Source: the human T2T-CHM13v2.0 reference genome, Homo sapiens. Taken from it: a stretch of 64,000 nucleotides of DNA. The notes below the pieces were generated by a model. That model was not told where the DNA came from. It saw only the letters and a list, made by a program, of their open reading frames with translations, and ran no database searches. Below, piece by piece: positions 1 through 35,200 of this stretch (positions are counted from its first letter, which is position 1; each line of letters begins with the position of its first letter). Location of the stretch: assembly GCA_009914755.4 (NCBI GenBank), contig CP068257.2, positions 8,800,001-8,864,000 of the forward strand, read 5' to 3'. The position numbers were made by a program, and so were the translations under genes.

Positions 1-743
1 CAGAAGCTTTCTGAGAAACTTTTTTTGTGATGTGTGCACTCATCTCACAGAGTTGAACCATTCTTTTGATTGAGCAGTTTGGTAACAATCTTTTTGTAAA
101 ATCTGCAAAAGGATATTTCTGAGCACTTTGAAGCCTATGGTGAAAAAGGAAATATCTTCACATAAAAACTAGAAAGAAGGTTTCTGAGAAACTGCTTTGT
201 GATGTGTGAATTCATCTCACAGAGTTAAACCTTTCTATTGATAGAGCATATTGGAAACAGTCTTTTTGTAGAATCTGCAAAGGGATATTTGTGAATGCTT
301 TGAGGCCTGTGGTGAAAAATTAATATCTTCACTTGGGACAGAAGCTTTCTGAGACACTTCTGTGTGATGTGTGCACTCATCTCACACTGTTGAAACATTC
401 TTTTGATTGAGCAGTCTGGAAACAGTCTTTTTGTAGGATCAGCAAAGGAATATTTGTGAGCACTTTGAGGCCTATGGGGAAAAAGGAAATAACTTCACAT
501 AAAAACTAGACAGAAGGTTTCTGAGAAACTGCTTTGTAATGTGTGCATTCATCTCACAGAGGTAAAGGTTTCTTTTCATTGAGCAGATGGGAAACTCCTT
601 GTAGAGTCTGCAAAGGGATATTTGTGAGTGCTTTGAGGCCTATGGTGAAAAAGGAAATATTTTCATATAAAATGTAGACAGAAGCTTTCTGAGAGATTTA
701 TTTGTGATGTGTGCATTCATCTCATAGAGTTGAACCATTCTTC
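1..743 (+). repeat. Alpha-satellite monomers (~171 bp), consensus orientation. Family X: ...CAGTCTTTTTGTAGAATCTGCAAAGGGATATTTGTGAGC...TGGTGAAAAAGGAAATATCTTCAC.
   Basis: Matches the canonical alpha-satellite monomer (CATTCTGAGAAACTTCTTTGTGATGTGTGCATTCATCTCACAGAGTTGAACC...). The ~171-bp period is visible by eye. Confidence 0.96.
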
Positions 744-1914
744 TTTTTTTTTTTGGAGCTCTGGGTTTATTTATTTATTTATTTACTTTTATTATTATTA
801 TAATTTAAGTTTTAGGGTACATATGTACAATGTGCAGGTTTGTTACATAGGTATACATATGTCATGTTTGTGTGCTGCACCCATGAACTCATCATTTAGC
901 ATTAGGTATATCTCCTAATGCTATCCCTCCCCCTCCCCCCACCCGAATACAGTCCCTGATGTGTGGTGTGTGGTGTTTTGCTTCCTGTGTCCATGTGTTC
1001 TCATTGATCAATTCCCAACTATGAGTGAGAACATGTGGTGTTTGATTTTTTGTCCTTCCAATAGTTCACTGAGAATGATGGTTTCCAGCTTCATCCATGT
1101 CCCTACAAAGGACATGAACTCATTATTTTTATGGCTGCATAGTATTCCATGGTGTATATGTGCCACATTTTCTTCATACAGTCTATCGTTGTTGGACATT
1201 TAGGTCAGTTCCAAGTCTTTGCTGTTGTGAATAGTGCTGCTATAAACATACGTGTGCATGTGTCTTTAAAGCAGCATGATTTATAATCCTTTGGGTATAT
1301 ACCCAGTAATGGGATGGCTGGGTCAAGTGATATTTCTAGTTCTAGATCCCTGAGGAATCACCACACTGACGTCCACAATTGTTGAACTAGTTTACAGTCC
1401 CACCAACAGTGCAAAATGTTCCTATTTCTCACATCCTCTCCAGCACCTGTTGTTTCCTAACTTTTTAATTATCACCATACTAACTGGTGTGAGATGATAT
1501 CTCATTGTGGTTTTGGTTTGCATTTCTCTGATAGCCAATGATGATGAGCATTTTTTCATTTGTTCATTAGCTGCATAAATGTCTTCTTTTGATAAGTGTT
1601 TGTTCATATCCTTCAACAACTTTTTGATGGGGTTGTTTGACTTTTTTCCTGTAAATTTGTCTGAGTTCATTGTAGATTCTGGATATTAACCCTTTGTCAG
1701 ATGAGTAGGTTGCAAAAACTTTCTCCCATTCTGTAGGATGCCTGTTCACTCTGATGGTGGTTTCTTTTGCTGTGCAGAAGCTCCTTAGTTTAATTAGATC
1801 CCATTTGTCAATTGTGGCTTTGTTGCCATTGCTTTAGGTGTTTTAGACATGAAGTCCTTGCCCATGCCTATGTCCTGAATGGTATTGCCTAGGTTTTCTT
1901 CTAGGGATTTTATG
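744..1914 (-). mobile_element. LINE-1 3' fragment (~1.17 kb, 5'-truncated, older L1PA/L1PB-like). It carries the end of ORF2 and the 3'UTR. The tail is (TAAA)n plus a short unique stretch plus poly(A), seen as poly(T) at 744-756.
   Basis: The minus-strand ORFs at 1422-1670 and 1567-1749 translate to the ORF2 C-terminus ([21 protein letters not shown]...[25 protein letters not shown]). The 3'UTR reverse complement (TTTAAGTTTTAGGGTACAT..TGTGCAGGTT...CATTAGGTATATCTCCTAATGC) is present. The element is flanked by alpha monomers, with a probable short TSD around CATTCTT. Confidence 0.9.
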
Positions 1915-4900
1915 TGAAGCATTCTTTTGATTAATCAGTTTGGATACTCTGTTCTTGTAGAATATGCAAGGAGATATTTGTGAGCGCTTTGAGGCCTTTG
2001 GTGAAAAAGGAAATACCTTCACATAATAAATAGACAGAAGTTCTCTGAGAAACCTCCTTGTCATGTGTGCATTCATCTCACAGAGTTGAAACAGTCTTTT
2101 TGCTGAGCTGTTTGAAAACTGTCTATTTGTAGATTCTGCAAAGGGATATTTATGAGCGCTTTGAGGCCTATGGTGAGAAAGGAAATATCTTCACATAAAA
2201 ACTAGACAGAAGATTTCTGAGAAACCTCTTTGTGATGTGTGCATTTATCTCACAGAGTTGAACCATTCTTTTGATTGAGCAGTTTGTAAACAGACTTTTT
2301 GTAGAATCCGCAAAGGGATATTTGTCAGCTCTATGAGGCCTATGGTGAAAAATGAAATATCTTCAATAAAAACTATAAAGAATTTTTCTGAGAAGCTGTT
2401 CTGTAAGATGTGCACTCATCTCAGAGAGATAAAAGTTTCTATTCTTTGATGAGCCTGGAAACTCTGTTCTTATAAAATCTGCAAAGGGATATTTGTGAGT
2501 GGCTTTAGGCCTACGGTGAAAAAGGAAATATCTTCACATAAAAACTAGACAGAAGACTTCAGAGAAACTTCTTTGTGATGTGTGCATTCATCTCACAGAG
2601 TTGAACCATTCTTTTGATTGAGAAGTTTGGAAACAGTCTTTTCAGAGAATCTGCAAAGGGATATTTTGAGTGCTTTGATAGGTATGGTGAAAAGGGAAAT
2701 ACCTTCAAATAAAAAGAGGACAGAAGCTTTCTGAGAAACTTCTTTGTGATGTGTGCATTCATCTCAAAGAGTTGAAACTTCCTTTTGATTAAGCAGTTTG
2801 GAAAGAGTCCTTTTCTAGAATCTGCAGAGGGATATTTGTGAGCCCTTTATGGCCTAAGGTGAAATAGGAAATATCTTCACATAAAAACTAGACAGAAGCA
2901 TTCTGAGAAACTTCTTTGTGAAGTGTGCTTTCCTATCACAGAGTTATACCTCTCTTTTGATTGAGGAGTTTGGAAACAGTCTTTTTGTAGAATATGCAAA
3001 TGGATATTTGGAGCACTTTGGGGCCTATGGTGAAAAAGGAAATATCTTCACATAAAAACTAGACAGAAACATTCTGAGAAACTTCTTTGCGATGTTTGCA
3101 TTCATATCACAGAGTTGAACCTTTCTTCTGATTGAGGAGTTTCAAAAGAGTCCTTTTGTAGAATCTGCAAAGGGATATTTGTGAGCCCATTGAGGCCTAT
3201 GGTGAATTAGGAAATAGCTTCACATAAAAACTAGTCAGAAGTTTTCTGAGAAACTTCTTTGTGATGTGTACTTTCATCTCACAGAGTTGAACCTTTCTTT
3301 TGATTGAGCAGTTTGGAAACACACTTTTTGTAGAATCTGCAAATGGATATTTAGAGCACTTTGAGGACTATGGTGAAAAAGGAAGTATCTTCACATAAAA
3401 ACTAGAAAGCAACATTCTATGAAACTTCTTTGTGATGCGTGCTTTCATCTCACAGAGTTGAACCTTTCTATTCATTGAGCAGTTTGGAAACCATCTTTTT
3501 GTAGAATCTGCAAATGGATATTTGGAGAGTTTTGAGGCCTTGGTGAGAATGGAAATATCTTCACATAAAAACTAGATAGAAGCATTCTGAGAAACTTCTT
3601 GGTGACGTGTGCATTCATCACACAGTGTTGAACCTTTCTTTTGATTGAGCACTTTGGAAACAGTCTTTTTGTAGTATCTGTAGAGGGATATTTGCGAGCG
3701 GTTTGAGGCCTATGGTGAAAAAGGAAATATCTTCACATAAAAACTAGAGAGAAGCTTTCTGAGAAACTTCTTTGTGATGTGTGAATTCATCTCACAGTGT
3801 TGAACCCTTCTTTGGATTGAGCAGTTTGGAAACAATCCTTTTGTAGAATCTGCAAAGGTATATTTCTGAGCCCATTGAGGCCTATGGTGAAATATGAAAT
3901 ATCTTCCCATAAAAACTAGACAGAAAGTTTCTAAGAAACTTCTTTGTGATGTGTGCTTCCATCTCACAGAGTTGAACCTTTCTTTTGATTGGGAAGTTTG
4001 GAAACAGTCTTTTTGTAGAATCTGCAAATGGATGTTTGGAGCACTTTGAGGCCTATGGTAAAAAAGGAAATATCACATAAATATTAGAAGGAAGCATTCT
4101 GAGAAACTTCTTTGTGATGTTTGCATCCATCTCACACAGTTGAACATTTGTTTGATTGAAGATTTGGACACAGTCTTTTTGTAAAATCTACAAAGGGATA
4201 ATTGTGAACCCTTTGAGACCTATGGTGAAGTAGGAAATATCTTCATATAAAAACTACACAGAAACATTCTGAGAAACTTTTTTTGTGATGGGTGCATTCA
4301 TCTCACAGAGTTGAAGCTTTCTTTTGCTAGAGCAGTTTGGAAACAGTCTTATTGTAGAATCCCCAAAGGGATATTTCTGAGCCCATTGAGGCCTTTGGTG
4401 ATATAGGAAATACCTTCACATGAAAGCTAGACAGAAGATTTCTGAGAAACTTCTTTTCAATGAGTGCTTTCATCTCAAAGAGTTGAGCATTTCTTTTGAC
4501 TGAGGAGTTTGGAAACACTCTTTTTGCAGAATCTGCAAATGGATAATTGGAGTGTTTTGAGGCCTATGGTGAAAAAGGAAATATCTTCACATAACAACTA
4601 AACAGAAGTTTTCTGAGAAACTACTTTGTTACGCATGCATTCATCTCACAGAGTTGAAACTTTCTTTTGATTGAGCCGTTTGTAAACAGTCTTTTTGTAT
4701 AATCTGCAAATGGATATTTAGAGCGCTTTGAGGCCTATAGTGAAAAAGGAAATATCTTCACAAAAAAAGTAGAAAGAAACACTCTGAGAAACTTCTTGGT
4801 GATATGTGCTTTCATCTCACAGAGTCGAACCTTTCTTTTCATTGAGCAGTTTGGAAACAGACTTTTTATAGAATCTGGAAATGCATATTTGGAGCGCTTT

Positions 4901-7900
4901 GAGGCCTATGGTGAAAAAGGAAATATCTTCAGATAAACACTAAACAGAAGATTTCTGAGAAACTTCTTTGTGATGCGTGCATTCATATCACAGAGCTGAA
5001 ACTTTCTTTTGATTTAGCAGTTTGTAAACAGTCTTTTGGTAAAATCTGCAAATGGATACTTTGAGTGCTTTGAGGCCTATGGTGAAAAAGGAAATATCTT
5101 CACAAAAAAACTAGAAAGATACATTCTGAGAAATTTCTTTGTGATGTGTGCTTTCAACTCACAGAGTTGAAACTTTCTTTTCACTGAGCAATTTGGAAAC
5201 AGTCTTTTTGTGGAATCTGCAAAAAATATTTTTAAGCCCTTTAAGGCCCATGGTGAAACAGAAAATATCCTCACAAAAAAACTAGACAGAAGCTTTCTGA
5301 GAAACTTCTTTGTGATGTGTGCTTTCAACTCACGGAGTTATACCTTTCTTTTGATTGAGCAGTTTGGAAACAGTCTTTTTGTGGAATCAGCAAATGGATG
5401 TTGGAGTGCTTTGAGGCCTATGGTGAAAAAGGAAATACCTTCACATAAAAAATAGATGGAAGCATTGTGAGAAACATCTCTGTGATGTGTGCATTCATCT
5501 CATAGAGTTGAACCTTTCTTTGATTGAGCAGCTTGGAAACAGTCTTTTTGTGGAATCAGCAAATGGATGTTTGGAGTGCTTTGAAGCCCATGGTGAAAAA
5601 GGAAATACCTTCACATAAAAAATAGACAGAAGCATTGTGAGAAACATCTCTGCAGTGTGTGCATTCATCTCATAGTGTTGAACCTTTGTTTGATTAAGCA
5701 GCTTGGAAACAGTCCTTTTGTAGACTCTGCAAAGGGATATTTCTGAGCCCATTGAAGCCTAGGGTGGAAAAGAAATGTCTTCACATAAAAACTAGACAGA
5801 AGCATTCTGATAAACTTTTTTGTGATGTGTCCATTCATCTTACAGAGTTAAAACTTTCTTTGGATTGAGCAGTTTGGAAACAGTCTTTTTGTGGAATCTG
5901 CAAAAAATATTTTTGAGCCCTATATGACTGAAGGTGAAATAGGAAATATCTTCACAAAAAAACTAGACAGAAGCATTCTGAGAAACTTCTTTGTGACGTG
6001 TGCTTCCGTGTCACAGAGTTGAACCTTCCTTTTGATTGAGCAGTTTGGAAACACTCTTTTTGTAGAATCTGCAAATGGGTATTTGGAGTGCTTTGAGGCC
6101 TATGGTCAAAAAAGAAATACCTTCACATAAAAACTAGACAGATGCATTCTGTGAAACTTCTTTGTGATGTGTGCATTCATCTCACAGAGTTGAATCTTTC
6201 TTTGGATTCAGCAGTTTTCTAAACAGTCCTTTTGTAGAATCTGCAAAGGGATATTTCTGAGCCCATTGAAGGCTATGGTGAAAAAGGAAATATCTTCAAA
6301 TAAAAACAAAACAGAAGCTTTCTGAGAAGCTTCCTGTGATGTGTGCATTCATCTCATAGAGTTTAATCTTTCTTTTGATTGAGCAGTTTAGAAACAGTCT
6401 TTTTGTAAAATGAGCAAAAGGATATTTCTGAGCCATTTGAGGCCGATGGTGAAAAAGAAATATCTTCACATCAAAACTAGACAGAAGCATTCTGAGAAAC
6501 TTGTTTCTGATGTGTGCATTCATCTCACAGGGTTGAACCTTTCTTTTTTTTGAGCAGTTTGGAGTCTTTTTTTTTTTGAATATGCAAATGGATATTTGTG
6601 AGCGCTTTACAGCCTATGGTGAAATAGGAAATATCTTCACATAAAAATAAGACAGAATCTTTCTGAGAAAATGCTTTGAGATGTGTGCTTTCATCTCACA
6701 GAGATGAACTTTTCTTTTGATCAAGCAGCTTGGAAACATTCTTTTTGTAGAATCCGCAAATGGATATTTGCAGCACTTTTAGGCCTATGGTGAAAAAGGA
6801 AATATCTTCACAAAAAAGCTAAAAAGAAGCTTTCTGAGAAACTTCTTTGTGATGTGTGGATTTATATCACAGAGCTGATCCTTTCTTTTGATTGAGCAGA
6901 TTGGAAACCATCTTTTTGTACAACCTGCAACGGGATATTTCTGAGCCGTTTGATGCCTATGGGGAAAAAGAATTATCTTCACATGAAAACTAGACAGAAT
7001 CATTCTGAGAAATTTCCTTGTGATGTGTGCCTTCATGTCGCAGAGTTGAACCTTTCTTTTCTTGGAGCAGTTTGGAAACAGTCTTTTTGTAGTATCTGCA
7101 GAGGGATATTTGTGAACAGTTAAAGGCCTATGGTGAAAAATAAAATATCTTCACATAAAAACTATACAGAAGCATTCCGAGAAACTTAGTTTTTTTGTGT
7201 GCATTCATCTGACAGAGATGAATCTTTCTTTTCTTTGAGCAGTCTATAAACAGTCTTTTTATACAATGTGCAAAGGGATATTTCTGAGCGGTTTGAGGCC
7301 TATGGTGAAAAAGTAATATCTTCACATAAAAACTAGACAGAAGCATTCTGAGAAACTTCTATTTTATGTGTGCATTCACCTCACAGAGTTGAAACTTTCT
7401 TTTCATTGAGCAGTTTGGAAAGAGTCTTTTTGTAGAATTTTCAAAGGGATATTTGTGATTCCTTTGAGGCCTGTGGTGAAATAGGAAATATCCTCAAATA
7501 AAAAGACAGAAGCTTTCCAAGAAACTTCTTTTTGATGTGTGCTTTCATCTCACAGAGTTGAGCCTTTCTTTTGATTGAGAAGTTTGGAAACAGTCTTTTT
7601 GTGGAATCTGCAAATGGATGTTTGGAGTGCTTTGAGGCCTATGGTGAAAAAGTAAATATCTTCACATAAAAACTAGATGGAAGCATTCTGAGAAACTTCT
7701 TTGTGATGTGTGCATTCATCTCATGTTGTTGAGCCTATCTTTTGATATAGCAGATTGGAAACAGTACTTTTGTTGTATCTGCAGAGGGATATTTGTGAGC
7801 AGTTTGAGGCCTATGGTGAAAAAGTAAATACCTTCACATAAAAACTAGACAGAAGCATTCTGGGAAACTTCTCTGTGATGTGCGCATTCAACTCACAGAG

Positions 7901-10900
7901 GTGAACCTTTCTTTAGATTGAGAAGCTTGGAAACAGTCCTTTTTTAGAATCTGCAAAGGGATATTTCTGAGCCCATTGAGGCCAAGGGTGAAAAAGAAAT
8001 ATCTTCACATAAAAACTGGACAGATGCATTCTGATAAACTTCTTTGTGATGTGTCCATTCATCTCACAGATTTGAACCTTTCTTTGGATTGAGCAGTTTG
8101 GAAAAAGTCTTTTTGTAGTATTTGCAAAAAATATTTGTGAGCCCTTTATGGCCTATGGTGAAAAAGGAAATATCTTCACATAAAAACTACACAGAAGCTT
8201 TCTGAGAAACTACTTTGTGATGTGTGCTTTCATCTCACAGAGATGAACCTATCTTTTGAAAGAGCAGTTTGGAAACACTCTTTTTGTAGAGGCTGTAAAT
8301 GGGCATTTGGAAAATTTTGAGGCCTATGGTGAAAAAGGAAATATCCTCAAATGAAAACCAGACAGAAGCATTCTGAGAAACTTCTTTGTGATGTGTGTAT
8401 TCATCTCACAGAGATGAACATTTCTTTGGATGCAGCAGTTTGGAAACAGTCTTTTTGTAGTATCTGCAGAGGAATATTCATGAGCAGTTTAAGGCCTATG
8501 GTTAAAAAGAATATATCTTCACATAAAAAGCTGACAGATCCATTGTGAGAAACTTGTTTATGATGTGTGCATTCATCTCACAGGGTTGAAACTTTCTTTA
8601 GATTGAGCAGTTTAATAAACAGGCCTTTCATAGAATCTGCAAAGGGATATTTCTGAGCCCATTGAGGCCTATGGTGAAAAAGGAAATATCTTCACATGAA
8701 AGCAAAACAGAAGCTTTCTGAGAAACTTCTTTGTGATATGTGCATGCATCTCACAGTGTTGAACTTTTCTTTTGATAGAGCAGTTTGGAAACAGTCTTTT
8801 TGTACAATCTGCAAAGGGATATTTCTGAGCCATTTGAGGCCTATTGTGATAGAGAAATATCTTCACATAAAACCTATACAAAAGCATTCTGAGAAACTTC
8901 TTTGTAATGTGTGCATTCATCACACAGAGTTGAACTTCTCTTTTGATTGAGCAGTTTGGAAGCAGTCTTTTTGTAGAATATGCAAAAGGATATTTGTGAG
9001 CCCTTTCAGGCCTATGGTGAAATAAGGAATATCTTCACAAAGAAAACTAAACAGAAGATTTCTGAGAAACTTCTTTGTGATGTGTGCTTTCATCTCACAA
9101 AGTTGAACTTTTCTTTTGATTGAGAAGTTTGGAAACAGTCTTTTTGTAGAATCTGAAGATGGATATTTGCAGCATTTTAGGCCTATAGTGAACAGGAAAT
9201 ATCTTCACATAAAAACTAGACAGAAGCATTCTGAGAAACTTCTTTGTGATGTCTGCATTCACATCACAGAGCTGAAACTTTCCTTGGATTGAGAAGTTTG
9301 GAAAGAGTACTTTTGTAGAATCTGTAAAGGGATATTTCTGAGCCAATTGGGGCCTATGGTGAAATAGGAAATGTCTTTACATAAAAACAAGGCAGAAGCT
9401 TTCTGAAAAACTACTTCATGCTGTGTGCATTCACCTCACAGAGTTGAACCTCTCTTTTGATTGAGCAGTTTGGAAACACTCTTTTTGTAGAACTTGCAAA
9501 TGGATATTTGGAGTGCTTTGAGGCCTATGGTGTAAAAGGAAATATCTGCATATAAAAACTAGACAGAAACTTTCTGAGAAACTTCTTTGTGATGCATGCT
9601 TTCATCTCACAGATTTGGACCTTGCTTTTCATTGAGCAATTTGGCAACAATTCATTTTGTAGAATCTGCAAAGGGATATTTGTGACTGGTTTGAGGCCTA
9701 TGGTGAAAAAGTAAATATCTTCACCTAAAACCCAGATAGAAGCATTTTCAGAAAACTCTTGGGATGTTTGCATTCATCTCACTGAGTTGAACCTTTCTGT
9801 TTATTGAGCAGTGTGGAAGCATACTTTTTGTGCAATCTGCAAAGGAATATTTGTTTACGGTTTGAGACCTATGGTGAAAAAGTAATATCTTCACATAAAA
9901 AGTTGACAGAAGCATTCTGAGAAACTAATTTTTTATGTGTGCATTGATCTCAAAGAGTTGAACCTTTCTTTTGATGAAGCAGTTTGGAAACAGTTTTTTG
10001 AAGAATCTGAAAAGGGATATTTGTGATCCCTTTGAGGCCTAAGGTGAAATAGGGAATATCTTCGCATAAAAACTAGACAGAAACTTTCTGAGAAACTTCT
10101 TTGTGATGTGGGCTTTCATCTCACAGATTTGAAACTTCATTTTGATTGAGCAGTTTGGAAAGACTCTTTTTGTAGTATCTGCAGAGGGCTATTAGTGAGC
10201 AGACTGAGGCCTATAGTGAAAAAGGAAATGGCTTCTCAAAAAAACTAGACAGAAGCATTCTGAGAGACTTCTTTGTAATGTGCGCATTCATCTTATAGAG
10301 TTAAACCATTCTTTTGATTGAGCTTTTTGGAAACACTCTTTTTGTGGCATCTGTAAGGGTAAACTTCTGAGCCCATTGAGACCTATTTTGAAATATGAAA
10401 TATCTTCAAATAAAAACTAGATAGAAAGTTTCTAAGAAACTCCTTTGTGATGTGTGCTTTCATCTCACAGAGTTAAAACTTTATTTTGATTCAGCAGTTT
10501 GGAAACACTTTTTTTATAGAATCTGCAAGTGGATATTTGGAGCTCTTTGAGGCCCATGGTGAAAAAGGAAATATCTTCACATATAAACTAAACAGAAGTT
10601 TTCTGAGAAACTTCTTTGTGATGTGTGCATTTATCTCACAGAGCTGTACTGTTCTTTTGATTGAGCAATTTGGAAACAGTTTTTTTGTAAAATCTGCAAA
10701 TGGATATTTGGAGCGCTTTGAGGTGTATGGTGAAAAATGAAACTTCTTCACATAAAACTAGACAAAAGCATTCTGAGAAACTTATTTGTGATGTGTGCTT
10801 TCGTCACACAAAGTTTAACCTTTCTTTTCATTGAGCAGTTTGCAAACAGTCTTTTTGTAGAATCTGCAAAGGGATATTTGTTAGTGGTTTGAGGCCTATG

Positions 10901-16900: not shown

Positions 16901-16990
16901 AATATCTTAACATAAAAAGTAGACAGAGGCATTCTGAGAAACTTCTTTATCATGTATGCATTCTTCTCCCGGAGTTAAACCATTCTTTTC
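1915..16990 (+). repeat. Alpha-satellite, about 88 monomers, consensus orientation. Family X, with alternating AAAGGGATATTTCTGAGCCCATTGAGG and AAATGGATATTTGGAGCGCTTTGAGG monomer types.
   Basis: Continuous 171-bp periodicity. Divergent A-type monomers with no CENP-B box. Confidence 0.95.
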
Positions 16991-17477
16991 TTTTTTTACT
17001 ATTATTATACTTTAAGTTTAGGGTACAAGTACACAATGTGCAGGTTACTTACAAATGAATACATGTGCCATGCTGGTGCGCTGCACCCACTAACTCGTCA
17101 TCTAACATTAGGTGTATCTCCCAATGTTATCCCTCCTCCCTCCCCTCACCCCACAACAGTCCCCAGAGTGTGATGTTCCCCTTCCTGTGTCCTTGTGTTT
17201 TCATTGTTAAATTCCCACCTATGAGTGAGAACATGTGGTGTTTGGTTTTCTGTCCTTGTGATAGTTTACTGAGAATGATGATTTCCAATGTCATCCATGT
17301 CCCCACAAAGGACATGAACTCATCATTTTTTATGGCTGCATTGTATTCCATGGTGTATATGTGCCACATTTTCTTAATCCAGTCTATCATTGTTGGACAT
17401 TGGGTTGCTTCCAAGTCTTTGCTATTGTGAATAGTGCCACAATAAAAATACGTGTGCATGTGTCTTTATAGCAGCAT
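16991..17477 (-). mobile_element. LINE-1 3' end (3'UTR plus last ORF2 codons, ~0.49 kb), with a short poly(T) at 16986-16997 on the left.
   Basis: Contains the reverse complement of the L1 3'UTR and ORF2 C-terminus (minus-strand ORF 17127-17459: ...[38 protein letters not shown]). Colinearity with L1 ends abruptly at GCAGCAT (17471-17477). Confidence 0.9.
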
Positions 17478-20594
<3,117 letters not shown>

Positions 20595-23500
20595 GTTCAA
20601 TGGGAAGAAACTACTTGTGTGTGATGAATGCACACGTCACAAAGGAGTTAGTCAGAAAACTTCTTTCTACTTTTAATGTGAAGATATTTCCTTTTTCACC
20701 ATATGCCTCAATGTGTTCCCAGGTATCCCTTTGCAGATTCTACAAAAAGACTGTTTCTAAACTGCTCAATAAACAGAATGGTTCAACCCTGTGAGACGAA
20801 TGTGCACATCACAAAGAAGTTTCTCAGAAAACTTCCTTCCCGTTTTTATGTGAAGAGATTTCCTTTTTGAATATAGGCCTCAAAGCACTCCCAAATATAC
20901 CTCTGCAGAATCTACAAAAAGACTGTTTCCAAAGTGCTCAATCAAAAGAATGTTTCAACTCTGTTAGATGAATGCACACATCAGAAAGTAGTTTCTCAGC
21001 AAGCTTCTCACTAGTTTTTAGGTGAAGATAGTTCCTTTTTCAACGTGGTTCTCAAAGCACTCAAAAATATCCCTTTGCAGACTCTAGAATAACAGAGTTT
21101 ATTAACTGCTCAATGAAAAGAAAGATTTACCTCTGTGAGATGAATACACATATCTTAAAGCAGCTTCTCAGAATGCTTCTTTCTAGTTTTTATGTGAAGA
21201 TATTTCCTTTTTCACCATAGGCCTCAACACACACCTAAATATCCCTCTGCAGATTGTACAAAAAGACTTTCCAAACTGCTCAATCAAAACAAATGTTAAA
21301 CTCTATGAGATAAATGCACACATCACAAAAAGTTTCTCAGAAAACTTTTGTCTAGTTTTTATGTGATGATATTTCCTTATTCACCATAGGCCTGAAAGCG
21401 CTACAAATATCCTTCTGCAGATTCTACAAAAAGACTGTTTGCAAACTGCTCAATCCAAAAAATGATTCAACTCTGTGAGATGAATGCACACATCACAAAG
21501 AAGTTTCTCAGAAACATTCTTTATGGTTTTTCTGTGAAGGTATTTCCTTTTTCACCATAGGCCTCAAAGCCCTCACAAATATCCCTTTGCAGATTCTACA
21601 AAAAGACTGTTTCCAAACCGCTCAATAAAAAGAATTATTGAACACTGTGAGATGAATGCACACAGATCAAAGAGGTTTCTCAGAGTCCTTCAGTCTGGTT
21701 TTTATGTGAATATATTTCCTTTTACAACATAGGCCTCAAAGCGCTCCAAATGTCCATTTGCAGACTCTACAAAAAGACTGTTTCCAAACGGCTCAATCAA
21801 AACAAAGTTTCAACTCTGTGTGATTAATGCACACATCATGAAGAAGTTTCTCAGAATGCTTCTGTCTAGTTTTTATGTGAAGATACTTGCTTTTTCACCA
21901 TAGGCCTCAAAGTGCTCACAAATATCCCTTTAGAGATTCTACAAAAATACTTTTTCCAAATTGCTCAATCAAAAGAAAGGTTCAATCCTGTGAGATGTAT
22001 GCACACCACAAAGAGGTTTCTCAGAAAGCTTCTCTCTAGTTTTTACATGAAGATATTTCCTTTTTCACCATAGGCCTCCAAGTGTTCACAAATATCCCTT
22101 TGCAGATTCTACAAAAAGACTCTTTACACATTACTCAATCAAAAGAATGTTTCATCTCTGTGAGGTGAATGCTCACATCACCAGGATGTTTCTCAGAAAG
22201 CTTCTGTGTAGTTTTTATGTGAAGATATTTCCTTTTTCACCATACGCCTCAAAGGGCTCACAAATATCCCTTTGCAGTTTTTAGAAGAAAAGAGTTTCCA
22301 ATCTTCTCAATGAAAAGAAAGAGACACATCTTGGAGATGAATGCACATATCACAAAGCAGTTTCTGAGAAACATTCTGTCTAGTTTTTATGTGAAGGTAT
22401 CTCCTTTTTCACCACAGGATGCAAAGCACTCAAAATTGTTGCTTTGCAGATTCTACAAAAAGTTTGTTTCCACAGTGCTCATCAAAAGAAAGGTTCACCT
22501 CTGTGAGATGAATGCACGTGTCAAAAAGAAGTTTCTCAGAAAGCTTCTATTAAGTTTTCATGTGAATGTTTCCTTTTTCACCATGAGCCTCAAAGTGCTC
22601 ACAAATATCCAGTTGAGGAATATTTACAAAGACTATTTCCAAACCGCTCAACCAAAAGAAAGGTTGAACTGTGTGAGATGAATGCACACATCACAAAGGA
22701 GTTTCTCAGAAACCTTCTTTATAGTTTTTCTGTGAAGATATTTCCTTTTTCATCATAGGCCTCAAAGCCCTCACAAATATCTCTTTGCAGATTCTACAAA
22801 AACACTGTTTCCAAACCACTCAATAAAAATAATTATTGAACTTTTTGAGATGAATGCACACATCTCAAAGAAGTTTCTCAGAAACCTTCAGTCTGGTTTT
22901 TATGTGAATATATTTCCTTTTTCACCATAAGCCTCAAAATGCTCCAAATATCCATTTGCAGGTTCTACAAAAAGACTGTTTCCAAACGGCTCAATGAAAA
23001 GAAAGTTTCAACTTTGTTAGATGAATGCATACATCACTGAGAAGTTTCGCAGGAGAATTCTGTCTAATTTTTATATGAAGACATTTCCTTTTTCACCACA
23101 GGCCTCCATCTGCTCACAAATATCTCTTAGCAGATTCTACAAGAACAGAATTTCCAGACTGATCAAAGAAAACAAACGTTTTTCTCTGTGAGATGAATGC
23201 ACACATCACAAAACTGTTTCTCAGAACCTTCTTTATACTTCTTATGTGATGATATTTCTTTTTTCTCCCTAGGACTCAAAGAGCTCAAAAATATCCCTTT
23301 GCAGATTCTACAAAAATATTGTTTCCAAACTGCACAATCAAAAAAATAGTTCAACTCCATGAGATGAATGCATACGTCACAAAGAAGTTTCTCAGAAACC
23401 TTCTTTATAGTTTTTATATGAAGATATTTCCTTTTTCACCATAGGCCTCAAAGTGCTCAGCAATATCCCTTTGCAGATTCTGCAAAAAGACTGCTTCCCA

Positions 23501-26500
23501 CCTGCTGAATCAAAAAAATGTTTAAACTCTGTGAGATGGATGCACACTTTACAACGAGGTTTCTCAGAAATCTTCTGTCCATTTTTTATGTGAAGATATT
23601 TCCTTTTTCACCATAGCACTCAAAGTCCTGACAAATATTCCTTGCAGATTCTACAAAAAGACTGTTTCCAGACTGCTCAATCAAAAGAATGGTTCAACTC
23701 TGTGAGATGATTGCACACATCACAAAGAAGCCACTAAGAAAGCTTCTGTCTAGTTTTTAAGTGAAGATATTTCCTGTTTCACCATAGGCCTCAAAGCACT
23801 CACAAATATCCCTTTGCAGATTCTACAAGAACAGAGATTCCAGACTGATCAGAGAAAATAAACGTTTACTTCTGTGAGATCAGTGCACACATGACAAAGC
23901 TGTTGCTAAGAACCCTTCTTTATACATTTTATATGAATATATTTCCTTTTTCACCATTGGCCTCAAAGCGCTCATAAATATCCCTTTGCAGATTCCACAA
24001 ACAGACGGTTTCCATACTGCTCAATCAAAAGTAAGTTTCATCTTTGTGAGATGAATGCCCACATCACAAAGAGGTTTCTCAGAAAGCCTCTCACTAATTT
24101 TTATGTGAAGATATTTCCTTTTTCACCATAGGCCTCAAAGCGCTCACAAATATCCCTTTGCAGACTCTACGAGAACAGTTGCCAGACTGACCAGAGAAAA
24201 GAAACATTTACCTCTGTGAGACGAGTGCATACATCACAAAGCTGTTTCTGAGAAACCATGTTTATACTTTTTATGTGAATATATTTCCTTTTTCACCATA
24301 GGTCTTAAAGCACTCATAAATATCCCTTTGCAGATTTTACAAAAAGACTGTTTCCAAACTGTTCAATCAAAAGAATGGTTGAACTCTATGAGATGAATGC
24401 AAACATCACAAAGAAGTTTCTCACAAAGCTGTTTAGTTTTTATGTGAAGATATCTCCTATTTCATCTTAGGTCTCATAGCTCTCAAAAATATGCCTTTAT
24501 GGATTCTACAAAAATACTGTATCCAAATTGCTCAATCCAAAGAGAGGTTCAAATCTGTGACATGAATGCACACATCACAAGGAGGTTTCTCAGAAAGCTT
24601 CTCTCTAGTTTTCCTGTGAAAATATTTCCTTTTCCACCATAGGCTTCAAAGCATCACAAATATCCCTTTGCAGATTCTACCTACCAAAGTACTGTTTACA
24701 AACTGCTCAATCAAAAGAATGTTTCAACTCTGTGAGATGAATTCTCGCATCTCCAAGATGTTTCACAGAAAGCTTCTGTCTAGTTTTTACGTGAAGATAA
24801 TTCCTTTTTCACCATAAACCTCAAAGCGCTGACAAATATCCTTTTGCAGATTTTACAAGAACAGAATTTCCAATCTGCTCAATGAAGGGAAATAGTTACC
24901 TCTGTGGGATGAAAGCACACATCACAAAGCAGTTTCTCAGAAATATTCTGTCTAGTATTTATGTAAAGATAATTCCTTTTTCAACACAGGACACAAAGCG
25001 CTAACTAATAACACTTTGGAAATTCTACAAAATACTGTCTCCAAACTGCTCATCAAAAGAAAGTTTCATCTCTATGCAATGAATGTATATATCAAAAAGA
25101 TGTTTCTCAGAAATCTTCTATCTTGTTTTTATGTGAGTGTGTTTCCTTTTTCACCATGGGCCTCAAAGTGCTCAAAAATATCCCTTTGCAGATCCTAAAA
25201 AAAGACTGTTTCCAAACTGCTGAATGAAAGGAATGGTTCAACTCTGTGAGATGAATGCACACATTACAAAGAAGTTTCTCACAAACCTTCTTTATAGTTT
25301 TTATGTGAAGATATTTCTTTTTAACCATAGACCTCAAAGCACTCACAAATATACCTTTGCAGATTCTACAAAAAGACGGTTTCCCAACTGCTCAATCAAA
25401 AGAATTGTTGAACTCTGTGAGATGAATGCATACATCACAAAGCAGTTTGTCAGAATTCTTTAGTCTAGTTTTTATGTGAAGATATTTTCTCTTTCACCAT
25501 AGGCCTCAAAGTGCTCAGAAATATCCCTTTACAGATTCCACAAAAAGACGTTTCCAAACTGCTCAATCAAAAGAAAGTTTCAATTCTGTGAGATGAATGC
25601 ACACATCACCAAGAAGTTTCTCAGGATGCTTCTGCCTAGTTTTTATGTGAAGACAATTCCTTTTTCACCATAGGGCTCTATGAACTCAAAAATATCCCTT
25701 AGCAGATTCTAAAACAACAGAGTTTGCCATATTATCAAAGAAAAGAATCGTTTAACTCTGTGAGATGAAAGCAGACATCACAAAACAGTTTCTCAGAAAA
25801 CTTCTTTATAGTTTTCTATGAAGATACTTCTTTTTCTGCATAGGCCTCAAAGTGCTCACAAATATCCGTTTGCAGATTCTGCAAAAATACTGTTTCCAAA
25901 CTGCTGAAGCAAAAGAGAGGTTCAAATCTGTGAGATGAATGCACATATCACAAAGAGGTATCTCAGAATCTTTCCTTATACTTTGTATGTGAAGATATTT
26001 CCTTTGTCAACATAAGCCTCAAAGTGATCAAAAATACTCCTTTTCAGATTGTACAAGAACAGAGTTTCCAGACTGATCAGAGAAAAGAAATGCTTACCTC
26101 TGCGAGATGAGTGCACACATCACAAGGCTGTTTTTAGGAAACCTGCTTCACAGTTCTTATGTGAAGGTATGTTTTTTCCACCATAGGCCTCACAGCGTTC
26201 CAAATATCCACTAGCAGATTTTACAAAAAGAGTGTTTCAAAACTGCTCAATCAAAGGAAAGGTTGAACTCTGTGAGATGAATGCAAACATCACAAAGGAG
26301 TTTCTCAGAATGCTTCTGTCTAATTTTTATGTTAAGGTATTTCCCTTTCCACCATAGGCATCAAAGCGCTCCAAATATCCACATGCAGATACGACAAAAA
26401 GACTGTTTCCAAACTGCTCAATCAAAAGTGTGGTTCAACTCTCTGAGATGAATACACACATAACTAAGAAGTTTCTCAGAATGCTTCTGTCTAGTTTTCA

Positions 26501-26689
26501 TATGAAGATATTTCCTTTTCCAACATAGGCCTCAAATCGCCCCAAATATCCACTTGTAGATTCTACAAAAAGAATATTTCAAAACTGGTCTATCAAAAGA
26601 AAATTTGAACTCGGTGAGATGAACACACACATCACAAAGAAGTTTCTCAGAATGCTTCTGTCTAGTTTTCCTTTTTTTTGAAGAGATTT
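20595..26689 (-). repeat. Alpha-satellite in reverse-complement orientation. It is family X up to ~26150, then family Y (CCACTTGCAGATTCTACAAAAAGAGTGTTTCAAAACTGCTC...).
   Basis: Monomers read as the reverse complement of the consensus (…GTGAGATGAATGCACACATCACAAAGAAGTTTCTCAGAA…). The strand switches at ~20590-20632. Confidence 0.94.
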
Positions 26690-30892
<4,203 letters not shown>

Positions 30893-30920
<28 letters not shown>

Positions 30921-32287
30921 ACCTTAAGTTTTAGGGTACATGTGCACAATGTGCAGGTTAGTTACATATGTATACATGTGCCATGCTGGTGTGCTGCACC
31001 CATAAACTCGTCATTTAGCATGATATATGTCTCCTAAAGCTATCTCTACCCCCTCCCCCCACCTCACAACAGTTCCTAGAGTGTGATGTTCCCCTTCCTG
31101 TGTCCATGTGTTCTCATTGTTCAATTCCCACCTAAGAGTGAGAATATACAGTGTTTGGTTTTTTGTTCTTCTGATAGTTTACTGAGAATGATGATTTCCA
31201 ATTTCATCCATGTCACTACAAAGGACATGAACTCATCATTTTTTATGGCTGCTTATTATTCCATGGTGTATATGTGCCGCATTTTCTTAATCCAGTCTAT
31301 TATTTTTGGACATTTGAGTTGGTTCCAAGTCTTTGCTATTGTGAATAGTGCCACAATAAACATACGTGTGCATGTGTCTTTATAGCAGCATGATTTATAG
31401 TCCTTTCGGTATATACCCAGTAATGGGATGGCTGGATCAAATGGTATTTGTAGTTTTAGATCCCTGAGGAATTGCCACACTGACTTCCACAATGGTTGAA
31501 CTAGTTTACAGTCCCACCAGCATTGTAAATGTGTTCCTGTTTCTCCACATGCTCTCCAGCACCTGTTGTTTCCTGACTTTTTAATGATTGCCATTCTAAC
31601 TGGTGTGAGATGGTATCGCATTGCAGTTTTGATTTGCATTTCTCTGATGGCCAGTGATGGTGAGCATTTTTTCATGTGTTTTTTGGCTGCATAAATGTCT
31701 TCTTTTGAGAAGTGTCTGTTCATGTCCTTCGCCCACTTTTTGATGGGGTTGTTTGTTTTTTTCCTGTAAATTTGTTTGAGTTTATTGTAGATTCTGGATA
31801 TTAGCCCTCTGTCAGATGAGTAGGTTGTGAAAATTTTCTCCCATTTTGTAGGCTGCCTGTTCACCCTGAAGGTAGTTTCTTTTGCTGTGCAGAAGCTCTG
31901 GTTTAATTAGATCCCATATGTCAATTTTGGCTTGTGTTTCCTTTGCTTTTGGTGTTTTAGACATGAAGTCTTTCCTATGATTATGTCCTGAATGGTAAAG
32001 CCTAGGTTTTCCTCCAGGGTTTTCATGGTTTGAGGTCTAACGTTTAAGTCTTTAATCTGTCTTGAATTAATTTTTGTATAAGCTGTAAGAAAGGGATCCA
32101 ATTTCAGCTTTCTACATGTGTCTAACCATTTTTCCCAGTACCATTTATTAAATAGGAAATCCTGTCCCCATTGCTTGTTTTTCTCAGGTTTGTAGAAGAT
32201 CAGATAGTTGTAGACACGTGGCATTATTTCTGAGGGCTCTGTTCTGTTCCATTGACTATATCTCTGTTTTGGTAGCAGTACCATGCT
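30893..32287 (-). mobile_element. LINE-1 3' fragment (~1.39 kb, 5'-truncated, L1PA-like) with a (TAA)n-type tail (ATTATT... at 30893-30920). It is flanked by a ~14-16 bp target-site duplication.
   Basis: Minus-strand ORFs 31256-31864 (202 aa) and 31907-32284 (125 aa) match the ORF2 C-terminus. Left flank is ...ATGCTTCTGTGGTTTTTAT and right flank is ATGCTTCTGTATAGTTTTTAT..., giving a TSD of about TCTGTG(TA)GTTTTTAT. Confidence 0.92.
31256..32284 (-). pseudogene. L1 ORF2 C-terminal remnant with one frameshift.
   Basis: Matches [113 protein letters not shown]. Confidence 0.85.
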
Positions 32288-35200
32288 TCTGTATAGTTTT
32301 TATGTGAAGTTAATACCTTTTCCAACTTAGGCTGAGAACAGCTCCAAATATCCACTTGCAGATGCTACAAAGAGAGAGTTTCAAAACTGCTCTATCAAAA
32401 TATAGGTTCAACTCTGTAAGTTGAATGCACACATCACAAAGAAGTTTCTCAGAATGCTTCTCTGTAGTTTTTATGTGAAGATATTTCCTTTACAACAATA
32501 GGCCTAAAAGTGCTCCAAATATCCACTTGCAGATTCTACAAAAAGAGTGTTTCCAAACTGCTCAATCAAAAGAGAGGTTGAACTCTGTGAGATGAATGCA
32601 CACATCACTAAGAAGTTTCTCAGAATGCTTCTGTGTAGTTTTTCTGTGAAGATATTCCTTTTTCCACCATAGACTTCAAAGGGCTCCAAATATCCACTTG
32701 GAGATTCTACAAAAAGAGAGTTTCAAAACTGCTCTATCAAAAGATAGTTTCAACTCTGTGAGTTGAATGCACACATCACAAAGTAGATTCTCAGAATGCT
32801 TCTGGGTAGTTTTTATGTGAAGATATTTCCTTTTCCACGATACGCCTCAAAGTGCTCCAAATATCCACTTGCAGATTCTACAAGAAGAGTGTTTCCAAAC
32901 TGGTCAATGCAAAGAAAGGTTCAAGTCTGTGACAGGAATGCACACATCACAAAGAAGTTTCTCAGAATGCTTCTGTGTAGTTTTTCTGTGAAGATATTCC
33001 TTTTTCCACCATAGGCTTCAAAGGGCTCCAAATATCCACTTGGAGATTCTACAAAAAGAGAGTTTCAAAACTGCTCTATCAAAAGATAGTTTCAACTCTG
33101 TGAGTTGAATGCACACATCACAAAGTAGATTCTCAGAATGCTTCTGGGTAGTTTTTATGTGAAGATATTTCCTTTTCCACGATACGCCTCAAAGTGCTCC
33201 AAATATCCACTTGCAGATTCTACAAGAAGAGTGTTTCCAAACTGGTCAATGCAAAGAAAGGTTCAAGTATGTGACAGGAATGCACACATCACAAAGAAGT
33301 TTCTTAGAATGTTTCTGTGTAGTTTTTATGTGAAGATATTTCCTTTTCAACAATAAGCCTAAAAGCGCTCCAAATATCCACGTGCAGATTCTGCAAAGAG
33401 TGTTTCCAAACTGCTCAATCAAAAGAGAGGTTGAACTCTGTGAGATAAATGTAAACATCACTAAAAAGTTTCTCAGAATGCTTCTGTGTAATTTTTCTGT
33501 GTAGATATTCCTTTTTCCACCATAGGTTTCAAAGGACTCCAAATATCCACTTGCAGATTCTAGAAAAAGAGAATTTCAAAGCTGCTCTCTCAAAAGGTAG
33601 GTTCAACTATGTGATTTAAATGCACACATCACAAAGTAGATTCTCAGAATGCTTCTGGGTAGTTTTTATGTGAAGATATTTCATTTTCCACCATACGCCT
33701 CAAAGCGCTCCAAATATCCACTTGCAGATTCTGCAAAAAGAGTGTTTCCAAACTGTTCAATCAAAAGAAGGGTTCAACTCTGAGATAAATGCACAGATCA
33801 CAAAGAATTTTCTGAGAGTGCTTCTGTGTAGATTTTATGTGAAGATATTTCCTTTCCACAATAGACCACAAAGCGCTCCAAATATGCACTTACATTTAAT
33901 ACAAAAAGACTGTTTCAAAACAGCTCAATCAAAAGAAAGGTTCAACTCCGTGAGATGAATGCACACATCACAAAGAAGGTTCTCGGAATAATTCTGTGTA
34001 GTTTTTATGGAAAGATATTTCCTTTTCCACCATCGGCCACAAAGGGCTCAAATTTCCACTTGTAGAGTCTACAAAAAGAGAGTTTCAAAACTGCTCATTC
34101 AAAAGATAGGTTCAACTCTGTGAGTTGAATGAACACAACACAAAGAAGTTTTTCAGAATTCTTCTGTGTGGTTTTTATGTGATCATATTTCCTTTTCCAA
34201 GATAGGCATAAAATCTCTCCAAATATCCCCTTGCAATTTCTACAAAAAGAGTGCTTCCATACTGCTCAACCAAAAGACAGGTTCAACTATGTGAGATGAA
34301 TGCACACATGAAAAGGAAGTTTCTCAGAATGATACTGTGTAGTTTTTATGTTAAGATATTTCCTCTTGCAACATAGGCCACAAAGGGCTCCAAATATCCG
34401 CTTGCATATACTAGAAAAAGAGTTTTTACAAACTGCTCAATAAAAAGAAAGCTTCATATCTGTGAGATGAATGCACACATCACAAAGAAGTTTCTCAGAA
34501 TGCTTCTGTGTAGTTTTTATGTGAAGATATTTCCTTTCCATGCAGGCCCAAAGTGCTCCAAATATCCATTGGAAGATTCTACAAAAAGTGTTTCAAAACT
34601 GCTCAATCAAAATAAATGTTCAACTCTGTGAGATAAAAGCAAGCATCACAAAGAAGTTTCTAAGAATGCTTCTGTGTAGTTTTTATGTGAAGATATTTCC
34701 TTTTCCATCATAGGCCTCAAAGTGCTGCAAATATCCACTTGCCGATTCTACAAAAAGAGTGTTTCCAAACTACTCAATCAAAAGAAAAGTTCAACTCTGT
34801 GAGATGAATGCACACATTGCAAAGGTGGTTCCCAGAATGCTTCTGAGTAGTTTTTCTTGGAAGATATTTCGTTTTCCACCATAGGCCACAAAGGGTTCCA
34901 AACATCCACTTGTACATTCTACAAAAAGAGAGTTTAAAATCTGATCTATCAAAAGATAAGTTCAACTCTGTGAGTTGAATGCACACATCACAAAGAAGTT
35001 TCTCAGAATGCTTCTTTGTAGTTTTTATGTGAAGATATTTCCTTTTCCACATAGGCCTCAAAGAGCTCCAAATACACAGTTGTAGATCCTATGGAAGGAT
35101 TGTTTCAAAACTGCAGAATCAAAAGAAAGGTTCAACTCTGTGAGATGAATGCACACGTTAGAAAGAAGTTTCTCAGAATGATTCTGTGTAGTTTTTATGT

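What the first reader, a model, noticed from the sequence alone, without database searches (positions are those of the whole stretch)
735..32290. L1 insertions reuse two fixed monomer-phase target sites in alpha-satellite
The poly(A) ends of L1#1 (…GAACCATTCTTC|T13) and L1#2 (…AAACCATTCTTTTC|T7) both lie at the CCATTCTTTT/GATTGAGCAG phase of a plus-oriented monomer, 16 kb apart. The poly(A) ends of L1#3 (…CTAGTTTTCC|T8) and L1#4 (…GTTTTTAT|(TAT)n) both lie at the TAGTTTTT/ATGTGAAG phase of reverse-oriented monomers, 4 kb apart. That phase is the reverse complement of CACATAAAAACTA. Both sites present a T-run followed by A or G on the priming strand, which is the L1 endonuclease preference (TTTT/A). 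I infer that the satellite offers two EN hot-spots per 171 bp, visible here as recurrent independent hits.
Basis: partly seen in the sequence, partly recalled or inferred. Interest (0 to 1): 0.6.

Follow-up and report, generated by a model that had tools for sequence, protein, structure and literature searches.

The report
L1 insertions at alpha-satellite T-runs
Four old L1 retrotransposon fragments sit in a diverged alpha-satellite array with their poly(A) ends at the few T-runs of the 171-bp repeat, which is what the known cutting preference of the L1 endonuclease predicts and was reported for human alphoid DNA in 1997, so the finding is real in part but ordinary.

Summary
All four are on the minus strand.

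- **L1#1 and L1#2:** their poly(A) ends lie at the same monomer phase, CTTTT/GA. They are independent events: the L1s differ by 14% and the flanks are only background-similar.
- **L1#4:** it lies at TAGTTTTT/AT with a 17-19-bp target-site duplication.
- **L1#3:** the junction is ambiguous. It may instead be an expanded T-run inside the monomer, which would put the junction at a third T-run, CCTTTT/CC.
- **Missing duplications:** L1#2 and L1#3 have no target-site duplication. L1#2 is also 5'-inverted.

The clustering is far from uniform (p about 6e-4, or 0.045 counting only the three secure junctions). It is not more than L1 endonuclease specificity predicts. Of the 1025 TTTT/purine sites in the array, 77% fall at four phases, and random draws from those sites land on two or fewer phases 18% of the time.

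"Two hot-spots per monomer" is therefore not shown. Site-specific L1 insertion in alphoid DNA was published in 1997. Verdict: partly confirmed observation, sound but known mechanism, low interest.

The parts
731..743 (+). L1#1 left copy of the target-site duplication (TGAACCATTCTTC), monomer phase 126-139
   Evidence: It matches the right copy at 11 of 12 positions and shares the minority A at column 132.
744..754 (-). L1#1 terminal poly(A), seen as T11 on the + strand
755..766 (-). 12-nt non-L1, non-alpha spacer GGAGCTCTGGGT between the terminal T-run and the (TTTA)n tail. Inferred to be a short 3' transduction ending 11 nt after the last AATAAA of the tail.
   Evidence: The spacer is unique in the window and does not resemble alpha (p = 0.49).
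767..1914 (-). L1#1 body: (TAAA)n tail, 3' UTR and the C-terminal part of ORF2. 5'-truncated, and the oldest of the four.
   Evidence: It has 39 private substitutions in about 470 nt, against 15-19 in the other three.
1915..1928 (+). L1#1 right copy of the target-site duplication (TGAAGCATTCTTTT)
16990..16997 (-). L1#2 poly(A) end: C then T7, directly after CCATTCTTTT (monomer phase 139)
16998..17478 (-). L1#2 segment B: the last 480 nt or so of L1, antisense
17479..18556 (+). L1#2 segment C: inverted (sense) ORF2 piece, about aa 276-634. It joins alpha at monomer phase about 85-89 through TGA(c/g)AAAC microhomology. The structure looks like twin priming but about 1.8 kb of L1 is missing between B and C.
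26672..26679 (.). It is either that or an expanded T-run inside the alpha monomer.
26680..26697 (.). GAAGAGATTTTAGC+TTTT. Either alpha satellite phase about 60 to 44 (which puts the junction at CCTTTT/CC) or a 14-nt 3' transduction.
26698..28876 (-). L1#3 body: (TAAA)n tail, 3' UTR and ORF2 from aa 625. The right flank restarts at monomer phase 34-36, so there is no duplication and 8-30 bp of target is lost.
30880..30896 (+). L1#4 left copy of the target-site duplication (GCTTCTGTGGTTTTTAT). It ends in the TAGTTTTT/AT site.
30895..32287 (-). L1#4: (ATT)n expanded 3' end, 3' UTR and ORF2 C-terminal part. 5'-truncated, with ATGCT microhomology to alpha at the 5' junction.
32285..32303 (+). L1#4 right copy of the target-site duplication (GCTTCTGTATAGTTTTTAT)

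Best explanation
Four independent, ancient L1 insertions entered a diverged monomeric alpha-satellite array by endonuclease-dependent target-primed reverse transcription.

The L1 endonuclease nicks after a run of T's, preferably before a purine. The freed T-run anneals to the L1 poly(A) tail and primes cDNA synthesis. A 171-bp repeat presents the same three to five T-runs in every copy. Independent insertions therefore pile up on the same few phases.

In this window:
- CTTTT/GA was used twice.
- TAGTTTTT/AT was used once or twice.
- CCTTTT/CC was possibly used once.

Nothing beyond the ordinary degenerate specificity of L1 endonuclease is needed. Resolution at the 5' end varied: two events made 14-19-bp duplications, one lost a little target, and one is 5'-inverted with a flank from another monomer.

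**Shown:** L1 identity, junction phases, independence of the events, and the distribution of T-run sites.
**Inferred:** the nicking and priming steps, from established L1 biology.
For: - **L1 identity:** ORF2p hits.
- **Only four interruptions in 64 kb**.
- **Junction phases and duplications**.
- **Independence:** L1#1 and segment B of L1#2 differ by 14%, with 39 and 19 private changes. L1#3 and L1#4 differ by 8.6%. The tails differ. The left flanks of L1#1 and L1#2 are 82.6% identical, against a background median of 81-82%. No alpha segment of 400 bp or more is 88% or more identical to another.
- **Site supply:** 77% of the 1025 TTTT/purine sites in the alpha part fall at four phases.
- **Expected pattern:** under equal use of those sites the observed pattern is expected, P = 0.18 to 0.67 depending on the statistic.
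- **An unrelated locus:** another alpha/L1 junction from metagenome contigs (L001, L003, L004) also ends at phase 64...CTGTCTAGT followed by the A/T-rich tail.
- **Literature:** L1 hallmarks and the 5'-TTTTT/AA consensus, PMC7026601. Prior report for alphoid DNA, Laurent et al. 1997 (title only). The same phenomenon in a plant satellite, PMC8091179.
Against: - Two of the four events (L1#2, L1#3) lack a target-site duplication, so endonuclease dependence is inferred for them from the T-run junction alone.
- The twice-used site has G, not A, after the nick.
- If the second reading of L1#3 is right, one site has C after the nick, which is a poor endonuclease site.
- The abundant CTTTTT/GT site (236 copies) was not hit. 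With n = 4 this is uninformative, but it is not evidence for equal use either.
Confidence: 0.85

Rival explanations
1. There is real extra selectivity. Only some of the monomer's T-runs are accessible or preferred, for example through DNA shape at T-to-purine steps, phased nucleosomes, or proteins bound to alpha satellite. Alpha satellite would then have fewer true hot-spots than its sequence predicts.
For: - No insertion lies at the abundant CTTTTT/GT site (236 copies).
- CTTTT/GA was hit twice.
- The TAGTTTTT/A site was hit in L1#4, possibly in L1#3, and in the unrelated L001 locus.
- Both monomers hit at column 139 carry the rare AACCATTCTT variant, found in 9 of about 346 monomers.
Against: - There are four or five events. 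The pattern has P = 0.18 or higher under equal use of all TTTT/purine sites.
- The external locus was found with a pattern that could only detect minus-strand sites, so it says nothing about plus-strand sites.
- The CCATTC variant lies 8 nt from the nick. It is locally common around L1#1, in every second monomer of 1-2700, which gives a joint p of about 0.02-0.03 before multiple testing.
Confidence: 0.1
2. The shared phases come from duplication. One insertion, with its flanks, was copied within the array by unequal exchange or segmental duplication, so the hits are not independent.
For: - Satellite arrays evolve by duplication.
- Both junctions at column 139 show a C just before the T-run, and both have CCATTC in the flank.
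Against: - L1#1 and segment B of L1#2 are 14% diverged. B is no closer to L1#1 than to L1#3 or L1#4.
- Tails, lengths and internal structure differ.
- The flanks are only background-similar, at 82.6%.
- There are no alpha duplications at 88% identity or more in the window.
- L1#4 has its own target-site duplication.
Confidence: 0.02
3. Pure coincidence under phase-independent insertion.
For: The sample is small.
Against: - Under a uniform null, the 2+2 pattern has p about 6e-4. With only the three secure junctions, p is about 0.045.
- All the junctions are at T-runs, which is the known endonuclease preference.
Confidence: 0.03

Closest known systems
Site-specific retrotransposition of L1 within human alphoid satellite (Laurent, Puechberty, Prades, Gimenez, Roizes, Genomics 1997;46:127)
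   Same: The same claim on the same substrate: L1 elements in alpha satellite insert at particular sites of the monomer.
   Different: I could confirm only the title and reference, because the paper is not in the library. Which phases they reported could not be compared with the ones here.
General L1 endonuclease target preference (5'-TTTT/AA and variants) and target-primed reverse transcription
   Same: T-run junctions, poly(A) ends, 14-19-bp duplications, 5' truncation, 5' inversion and short 3' transductions are all standard L1 hallmarks (PMC7026601).
   Different: Nothing differs in kind. The sites here are variants (TTTT/G, TTTTT/AT, possibly TTTT/C) rather than the exact consensus.
L1-CS LINEs in the Cuscuta europaea satellite CUS-TR24 (PMC8091179)
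   Same: LINE insertions mapped onto a satellite monomer show two preferred adjacent sites that resemble the L1 cleavage motif. The 5' and 3' ends are offset by the 13-16-bp duplication.
   Different: That work is in a plant, with a different LINE lineage and hundreds of insertions, so the preference is statistically established there. Here n = 4.
Recurrent L1-endonuclease-dependent insertion hot-spots in unique DNA (NF1 gene, Wimmer et al. 2011, PLoS Genet, listed in the references seen)
   Same: Independent insertions reuse the very same nucleotide positions because of endonuclease preference.
   Different: Those are de novo disease insertions in a gene. Here the events are ancient and fixed, and lie in a tandem repeat.
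Truly site-specific non-LTR elements (R1/R2 in rDNA, TRAS/SART in telomeric repeats); from general knowledge
   Same: Retrotransposons that occupy one fixed position of a tandem repeat unit.
   Different: Those elements have endonucleases with long, specific recognition sequences. L1 does not, and its apparent site specificity here comes from the repeat offering few T-runs.

Membership tests
LINE-1 (L1) retrotransposon insertion | Sequence homology to L1 ORF2 and the 3' UTR | tested here: met
   ORF2p structures are hit at E = 1e-194 (segment C, aa 298-634) and 1e-130 (L1#3, aa 625-846). The four 3' ends align with each other.
LINE-1 (L1) retrotransposon insertion | 3' poly(A) or A-rich tail at the junction | tested here: met
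   T11, T7, (TTTA)n with or without T8, and T5+(ATT)n at the left ends on the + strand.
LINE-1 (L1) retrotransposon insertion | 5' truncation or 5' inversion | tested here: met
   All four are truncated, at 1.2, 0.5+1.1, 2.2 and 1.4 kb. L1#2 carries an inverted ORF2 segment.
Endonuclease-dependent target-primed reverse transcription | Target-site duplication of about 7-20 bp | tested here: inconclusive
   Met for L1#1 (14 bp) and L1#4 (17-19 bp). Not met for L1#2: the candidate 51 nt matches at only 43 of 51 and the right copy equals the consensus. Not met for L1#3, where 8-30 bp of target is missing.
Endonuclease-dependent target-primed reverse transcription | Nick site resembling 5'-TTTT/AA | tested here: met
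   CTTTT/GA twice and GTTTTT/AT once. L1#3 is either GTTTTT/AT or CCTTTT/CC.
Alpha satellite (monomeric, non-higher-order-repeat layer) | Tandem monomers of about 171 bp, with no long near-identical multimers | tested here: met
   Period 171-172 with 70-85% matches. 346 HMM hits. No segment pairs of 400 bp or more at 88% identity or more.
Site-specific non-LTR retrotransposon (R2 or TRAS type) | A single fixed target position set by a sequence-specific endonuclease | tested here: not met
   At least two and probably three different phases, on both monomer strands, are used by four L1s. L1 is a dispersed element.
Twin-priming 5' inversion (for L1#2) | Inverted 5' segment that abuts the 3' segment in L1 coordinates, give or take a small deletion or duplication | tested here: not met
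   Segment B covers the last 480 nt or so and segment C covers ORF2 aa 276-634, so about 1.8 kb of L1 is missing between them. The orientation fits, and so does the 7-of-8 microhomology at the junction of C with alpha. It behaves like twin priming with a large internal deletion, but it is not the canonical product.

The most novel reading that the evidence does not exclude
Among the three to five T-runs that each alpha-satellite monomer offers, L1 may use some far more than their sequence predicts. For example, CTTTT/GA and TAGTTTTT/AT might be used but not the equally common CTTTTT/GT. That would reflect DNA shape or phased chromatin on the satellite. L1 and Alu junction phases could then serve as a fossil footprint of nucleosome or protein positioning on pericentromeric alpha satellite in the germline.
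Probability: 0.1. Interest if true: 0.4.

Novelty: already known. Interest (0 to 1): 0.12.

Why it matters
It matters little as it stands. It is a textbook consequence of L1 endonuclease specificity acting on a tandem repeat, and it was already described for alphoid DNA.

A complete-genome catalogue could still be useful. Compared with an endonuclease model, it could show whether chromatin on alpha satellite biases where L1 can nick. It would also sharpen the use of L1 insertions as age markers for pericentromeric satellite layers.

Tried and rejected
1. **One L1 split by an inversion.** I tested whether segment C of L1#2 (ending at ORF2 aa 634) and L1#3 (starting at aa 625) were one L1 split by an inversion of 18557-28876.
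   - The coordinates abut, with a 34-nt overlap.
   - Per-monomer typing puts L1#2 inside type-1 alpha on both sides and L1#3 inside type-2 alpha on both sides. The type switch is at about 26050.
   - The present order is therefore the simpler one. The inversion would also leave the orientation flip at about 20600 unexplained.
   - Rejected. The coincidence stays unexplained.
2. **A 51-55-nt target-site duplication for L1#2.** Rejected. The two copies match at only 43 of 51. The right copy equals the consensus, and the left copy ranks 300th of 337 monomers in similarity to it.
3. **L1#1's T-run and 12-mer as altered alpha.** Rejected. The 12-mer does not resemble alpha (p = 0.49), and a 14-bp duplication fixes the junction at the T-run.
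4. **Settling the L1#3 junction.**
   - For the intra-monomer reading: the alignment and the monomer variants without L1.
   - For the tail reading: the weak shuffle test (p = 0.07), the T12 in the second copy of the locus, and the analogy with L1#1.
   - Left open.
5. **An outside survey of alpha/L1 junctions.**
   - A pattern of alpha anchor, TTTT and L1 3' end found 4 contigs in the metagenome collection. They represent two loci.
   - It found nothing in the genome collection or the viral collection.
   - That is too few for any test.
6. **Reading Laurent et al. 1997.** The paper is not held. Papers that cite it give no details.
Full report
**What the window is.**
Tandem Repeats Finder reports 171-172-bp arrays over nearly the whole 64 kb, with 70-85% matches between copies and weak 340-343-bp dimer periodicity. 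I built a monomer HMM from the window; it finds 346 monomers. Only four gaps exceed 20 nt: 744-1914, 16990-18556, about 26690-28873 and 30896-32282. No two alpha stretches of 400 bp or more are 88% or more identical. This is therefore an old, diverged, monomeric layer of alpha satellite, not a higher-order-repeat array.

Monomer orientation flips four times, near 20600, 40329, 44196 and 53085. The monomer type changes at about 26050 without a flip.

**What interrupts it.**
The four interruptions are LINE-1 fragments. The plus-strand piece 17479-18556 translates to ORF2p residues about 276-634, and the aligned stretch 298-634 has E = 1e-194 against human ORF2p structures. The reverse complement of 26690-28876 starts at residue 625 (E = 1e-130). 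The 3' parts of all four align with one another down to the 3' UTR and tail. All four 3' ends are antisense on the + strand, so each poly(A) tail appears as a T-rich run at the left end.

**Junction by junction.**
- **L1#1.** The left flank ends ...GAGTTGAACCATTCTTC (731-743, monomer columns 126-139). Next comes a unique 12-mer, GGAGCTCTGGGT, then (TTTA)n and the L1 3' end. The right flank restarts at column 126 with TGAAGCATTCTTTT (1915-1928). That is a 14-bp target-site duplication and fixes the nick at CTTTT/GA.
- **L1#1, the 12-mer.** It does not resemble alpha (p = 0.49). It lies 11 nt after the last AATAAA of the (TAAA)n tail. I read it as a short 3' transduction; this is inference.
- **L1#2, the 3' end.** The left flank ends ...AAACCATTCTTTT at column 139, followed by C, T7 and the L1 3' end.
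- **L1#2, composite structure.** The element is composite: 480 nt of antisense 3' end (B, 16998-17478), then 1078 nt of sense ORF2 (C). C joins alpha at column 85-89 through TGA(c/g)AAAC microhomology. The 51 nt that could be a long duplication match at only 43 of 51. The right copy is pure consensus and the left copy carries eight private changes. So there is no duplication, and the right flank belongs to another monomer.
- **L1#2, twin priming.** The arrangement resembles twin priming, but about 1.8 kb of L1 is missing between B and C.
- **L1#4.** The left flank ends GCTTCTGTGGTTTTT(AT) at column 62-64 of a reverse monomer. An (ATT)n-expanded L1 3' end follows. The right flank restarts at column 82 (GCTTCTGTATAGTTTTTAT), with ATGCT microhomology to L1.
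- **L1#3.** This is the weak point. The + strand reads ...CTGTCTAGTTTTCC T8 GAAGAGATTTTAGC TTTT ATTT(n)... followed by the L1 3' end.
  - *Reading B.* The alpha monomer continues through the T8. GAAGAGATTT then corresponds to GAAGATATTT and AGCTTTT to CCTTTT, so the junction is at 26697/26698 on CCTTTT/CC, column 44.
  - *For B.* nhmmer and local alignment both extend alpha to column 44-50. Monomers without L1 show TAGTTTTCCTGTGAA (24606) and TAC-T9-GTGAAG (29683).
  - *For A.* The in-register match is only p = 0.07 against shuffles. TTTTT/A is the canonical nick, whereas TTTT/C is poor. A T-run this long is rare in these monomers. A 96.6% identical second copy of this locus, in a metagenome contig (L002), has an uninterrupted T12.
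  - *Verdict.* I cannot decide between the two readings. Under either, the right flank restarts at column 34-36, so 8-30 bp of target is missing and there is no duplication. Both flanks are type-2 alpha.

**Independence.**
- In the 470 nt shared by all four, L1#1 differs from each of the others by 14%. B, L1#3 and L1#4 differ from one another by 8.6-10.5%.
- Private substitutions number 39, 19, 15 and 18. The informative splits do not group L1#1 with B more than with the others.
- The 684-nt left flanks of L1#1 and L1#2 are 82.6% identical, equal to the background median of 81-82%.
- Tails, lengths and structures differ.

The four poly(A) junctions are therefore four separate insertion events, and L1#1 is clearly the oldest.

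**Is the clustering more than chance?**
Against a uniform model (171 columns, two strands, tolerance of 2 nt either way), a 2+2 pattern has p about 6e-4. One shared pair among the three secure junctions has p about 0.045. Insertion is therefore not phase-blind.

The right null model, however, is the known L1 endonuclease preference. I mapped every TTTT/purine site in the alpha part of the window to its monomer column and strand. There are 1025 such sites:

| Phase | Sequence context | Sites |
|---|---|---|
| Minus strand, after column 64 | GTTTTT/AT | 251 |
| Plus strand, after column 167 | CTTTTT/GT | 236 |
| Plus strand, after column 139 | CTTTT/GA | 202 |
| Plus strand, after column 153 | GTTTT/GA, largely type-2/3 monomers | 97 |

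A TTTT/C site at columns 43-44 of the minus strand is also frequent. Drawing four sites at random from the TTTT/purine set gives two or fewer phases 18% of the time. Some shared phase appears 67% of the time, or 43% with three draws. It does not show that only two of the sites are hot.

**Mechanism.**
- Shown: L1 identity, T-run junctions, duplications of canonical size at two elements, independence of the events, and the supply of sites.
- Inferred from established L1 biology (hallmarks summarised in PMC7026601): ORF2p endonuclease nicks after the T-run. The T-run pairs with the poly(A) tail and primes reverse transcription. Second-strand cleavage 14-19 bp away gives the duplication. Aberrant resolution gives the small deletion at L1#3 and the inverted, internally deleted L1#2. 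Because the repeat offers the same few T-runs every 171 bp, independent events coincide in phase.

**Outside evidence.**
- A junction pattern (alpha anchor, TTTT, L1 3' end) found four metagenome contigs, presumably primate contamination.
- One of them is the second copy of the L1#3 locus.
- The other three are a single different locus. There the alpha flank ends at column 64 (...CTGTCTAGT) and runs straight into an A/T-rich L1 tail. This is one more independent use of the TAGTTTTT/A site. The pattern could only see minus-strand sites, though.
- The plus-strand pattern found nothing in the genome or viral collections. No meaningful survey was possible.

**What is already known.**
[quoted passage not shown] The text is not available to me, so I cannot compare phases.
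- The same behaviour has been documented quantitatively for LINEs in a plant satellite. There, two preferred sites per monomer resemble the L1 cleavage motif (PMC8091179).
- Reuse of exact positions by independent L1-driven insertions is also known in unique DNA (the NF1 hot-spots reference, seen).

**Verdict.**
The mechanistic reading is sound but standard. The specific inference of two hot-spots per monomer is not supported by four events. Novelty: already known. Interest: low.

Noticed in passing
window 18520-18556 and 28840-28876: The inverted ORF2 segment of L1#2 ends at ORF2p residue 634. L1#3 begins at residue 625, so the two unrelated-looking fragments abut in L1 coordinates with a 34-nt overlap that contains 5 differences. 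An inversion joining them would be less parsimonious given the monomer types on each side. The coincidence is unexplained.
   Followed up: partly
window ~20590-20618, 40329-40337, 44196-44198, 53082-53085: There are four switches of alpha-monomer orientation, with breakpoints at unrelated monomer columns: + about 72 to - 121, - 33 to + 21, + 63 to - 169, and - 77 to + 149. None has an L1 or other insertion at the junction. These look like ancient inversions inside the satellite.
   Followed up: partly
window ~26050: The alpha-satellite monomer type changes here, from CAAAGGGATATTTGTGAGC... to CAAGTGGATATTTG.GAGC..., with no change of orientation. The change lies 3.7 monomers upstream of L1#3.
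   Followed up: partly
window 755-766 and 26680-26693: L1#1, and possibly L1#3, carry a 12-14-nt non-L1 spacer between a (TAAA)n tail and a terminal poly(A). In each case the spacer ends 11-15 nt after the last AATAAA of the tail. This looks like very short 3' transduction driven by poly(A) signals created within the tail itself.
   Followed up: partly
window 733 and 16978: Both monomers hit at the CTTTT/GA site carry the rare variant AACCATTCTT, found in 9 of about 346 monomers, instead of AACCTTTCTT. Around L1#1 the variant recurs in every second monomer, so the joint probability is only about 0.02-0.03. It is probably chance.
   Followed up: partly
L002:1-1632 (metagenome contig OONO01002207.1): This contig is a 96.6% identical copy of window 25286-26922, including the L1#3 junction. 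It has T12 where the window has TTTTCC+T8. It is either a paralogous copy or the orthologue from another primate that contaminated a metagenome assembly.
   Followed up: partly
L001:6029-6837, L003, L004:1561-2323 (JGI metagenome contigs): These contigs hold another alpha-satellite/L1 junction at the same TAGTTTTT/A phase, from an unrelated locus. That L1 is also 5'-inverted: L004 1672-2084 is antisense and 2062-2323 is sense. L001 also holds a second L1 (540-1422) whose poly(A) end lies in non-satellite DNA at the edge of the array.
   Followed up: partly
window 40426-40536, 52039-52277, 60302-60483: These are short local duplications or deletions of partial monomers, with periods of 54, 131 and 92 nt, that break the 171-bp register.
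   Followed up: no
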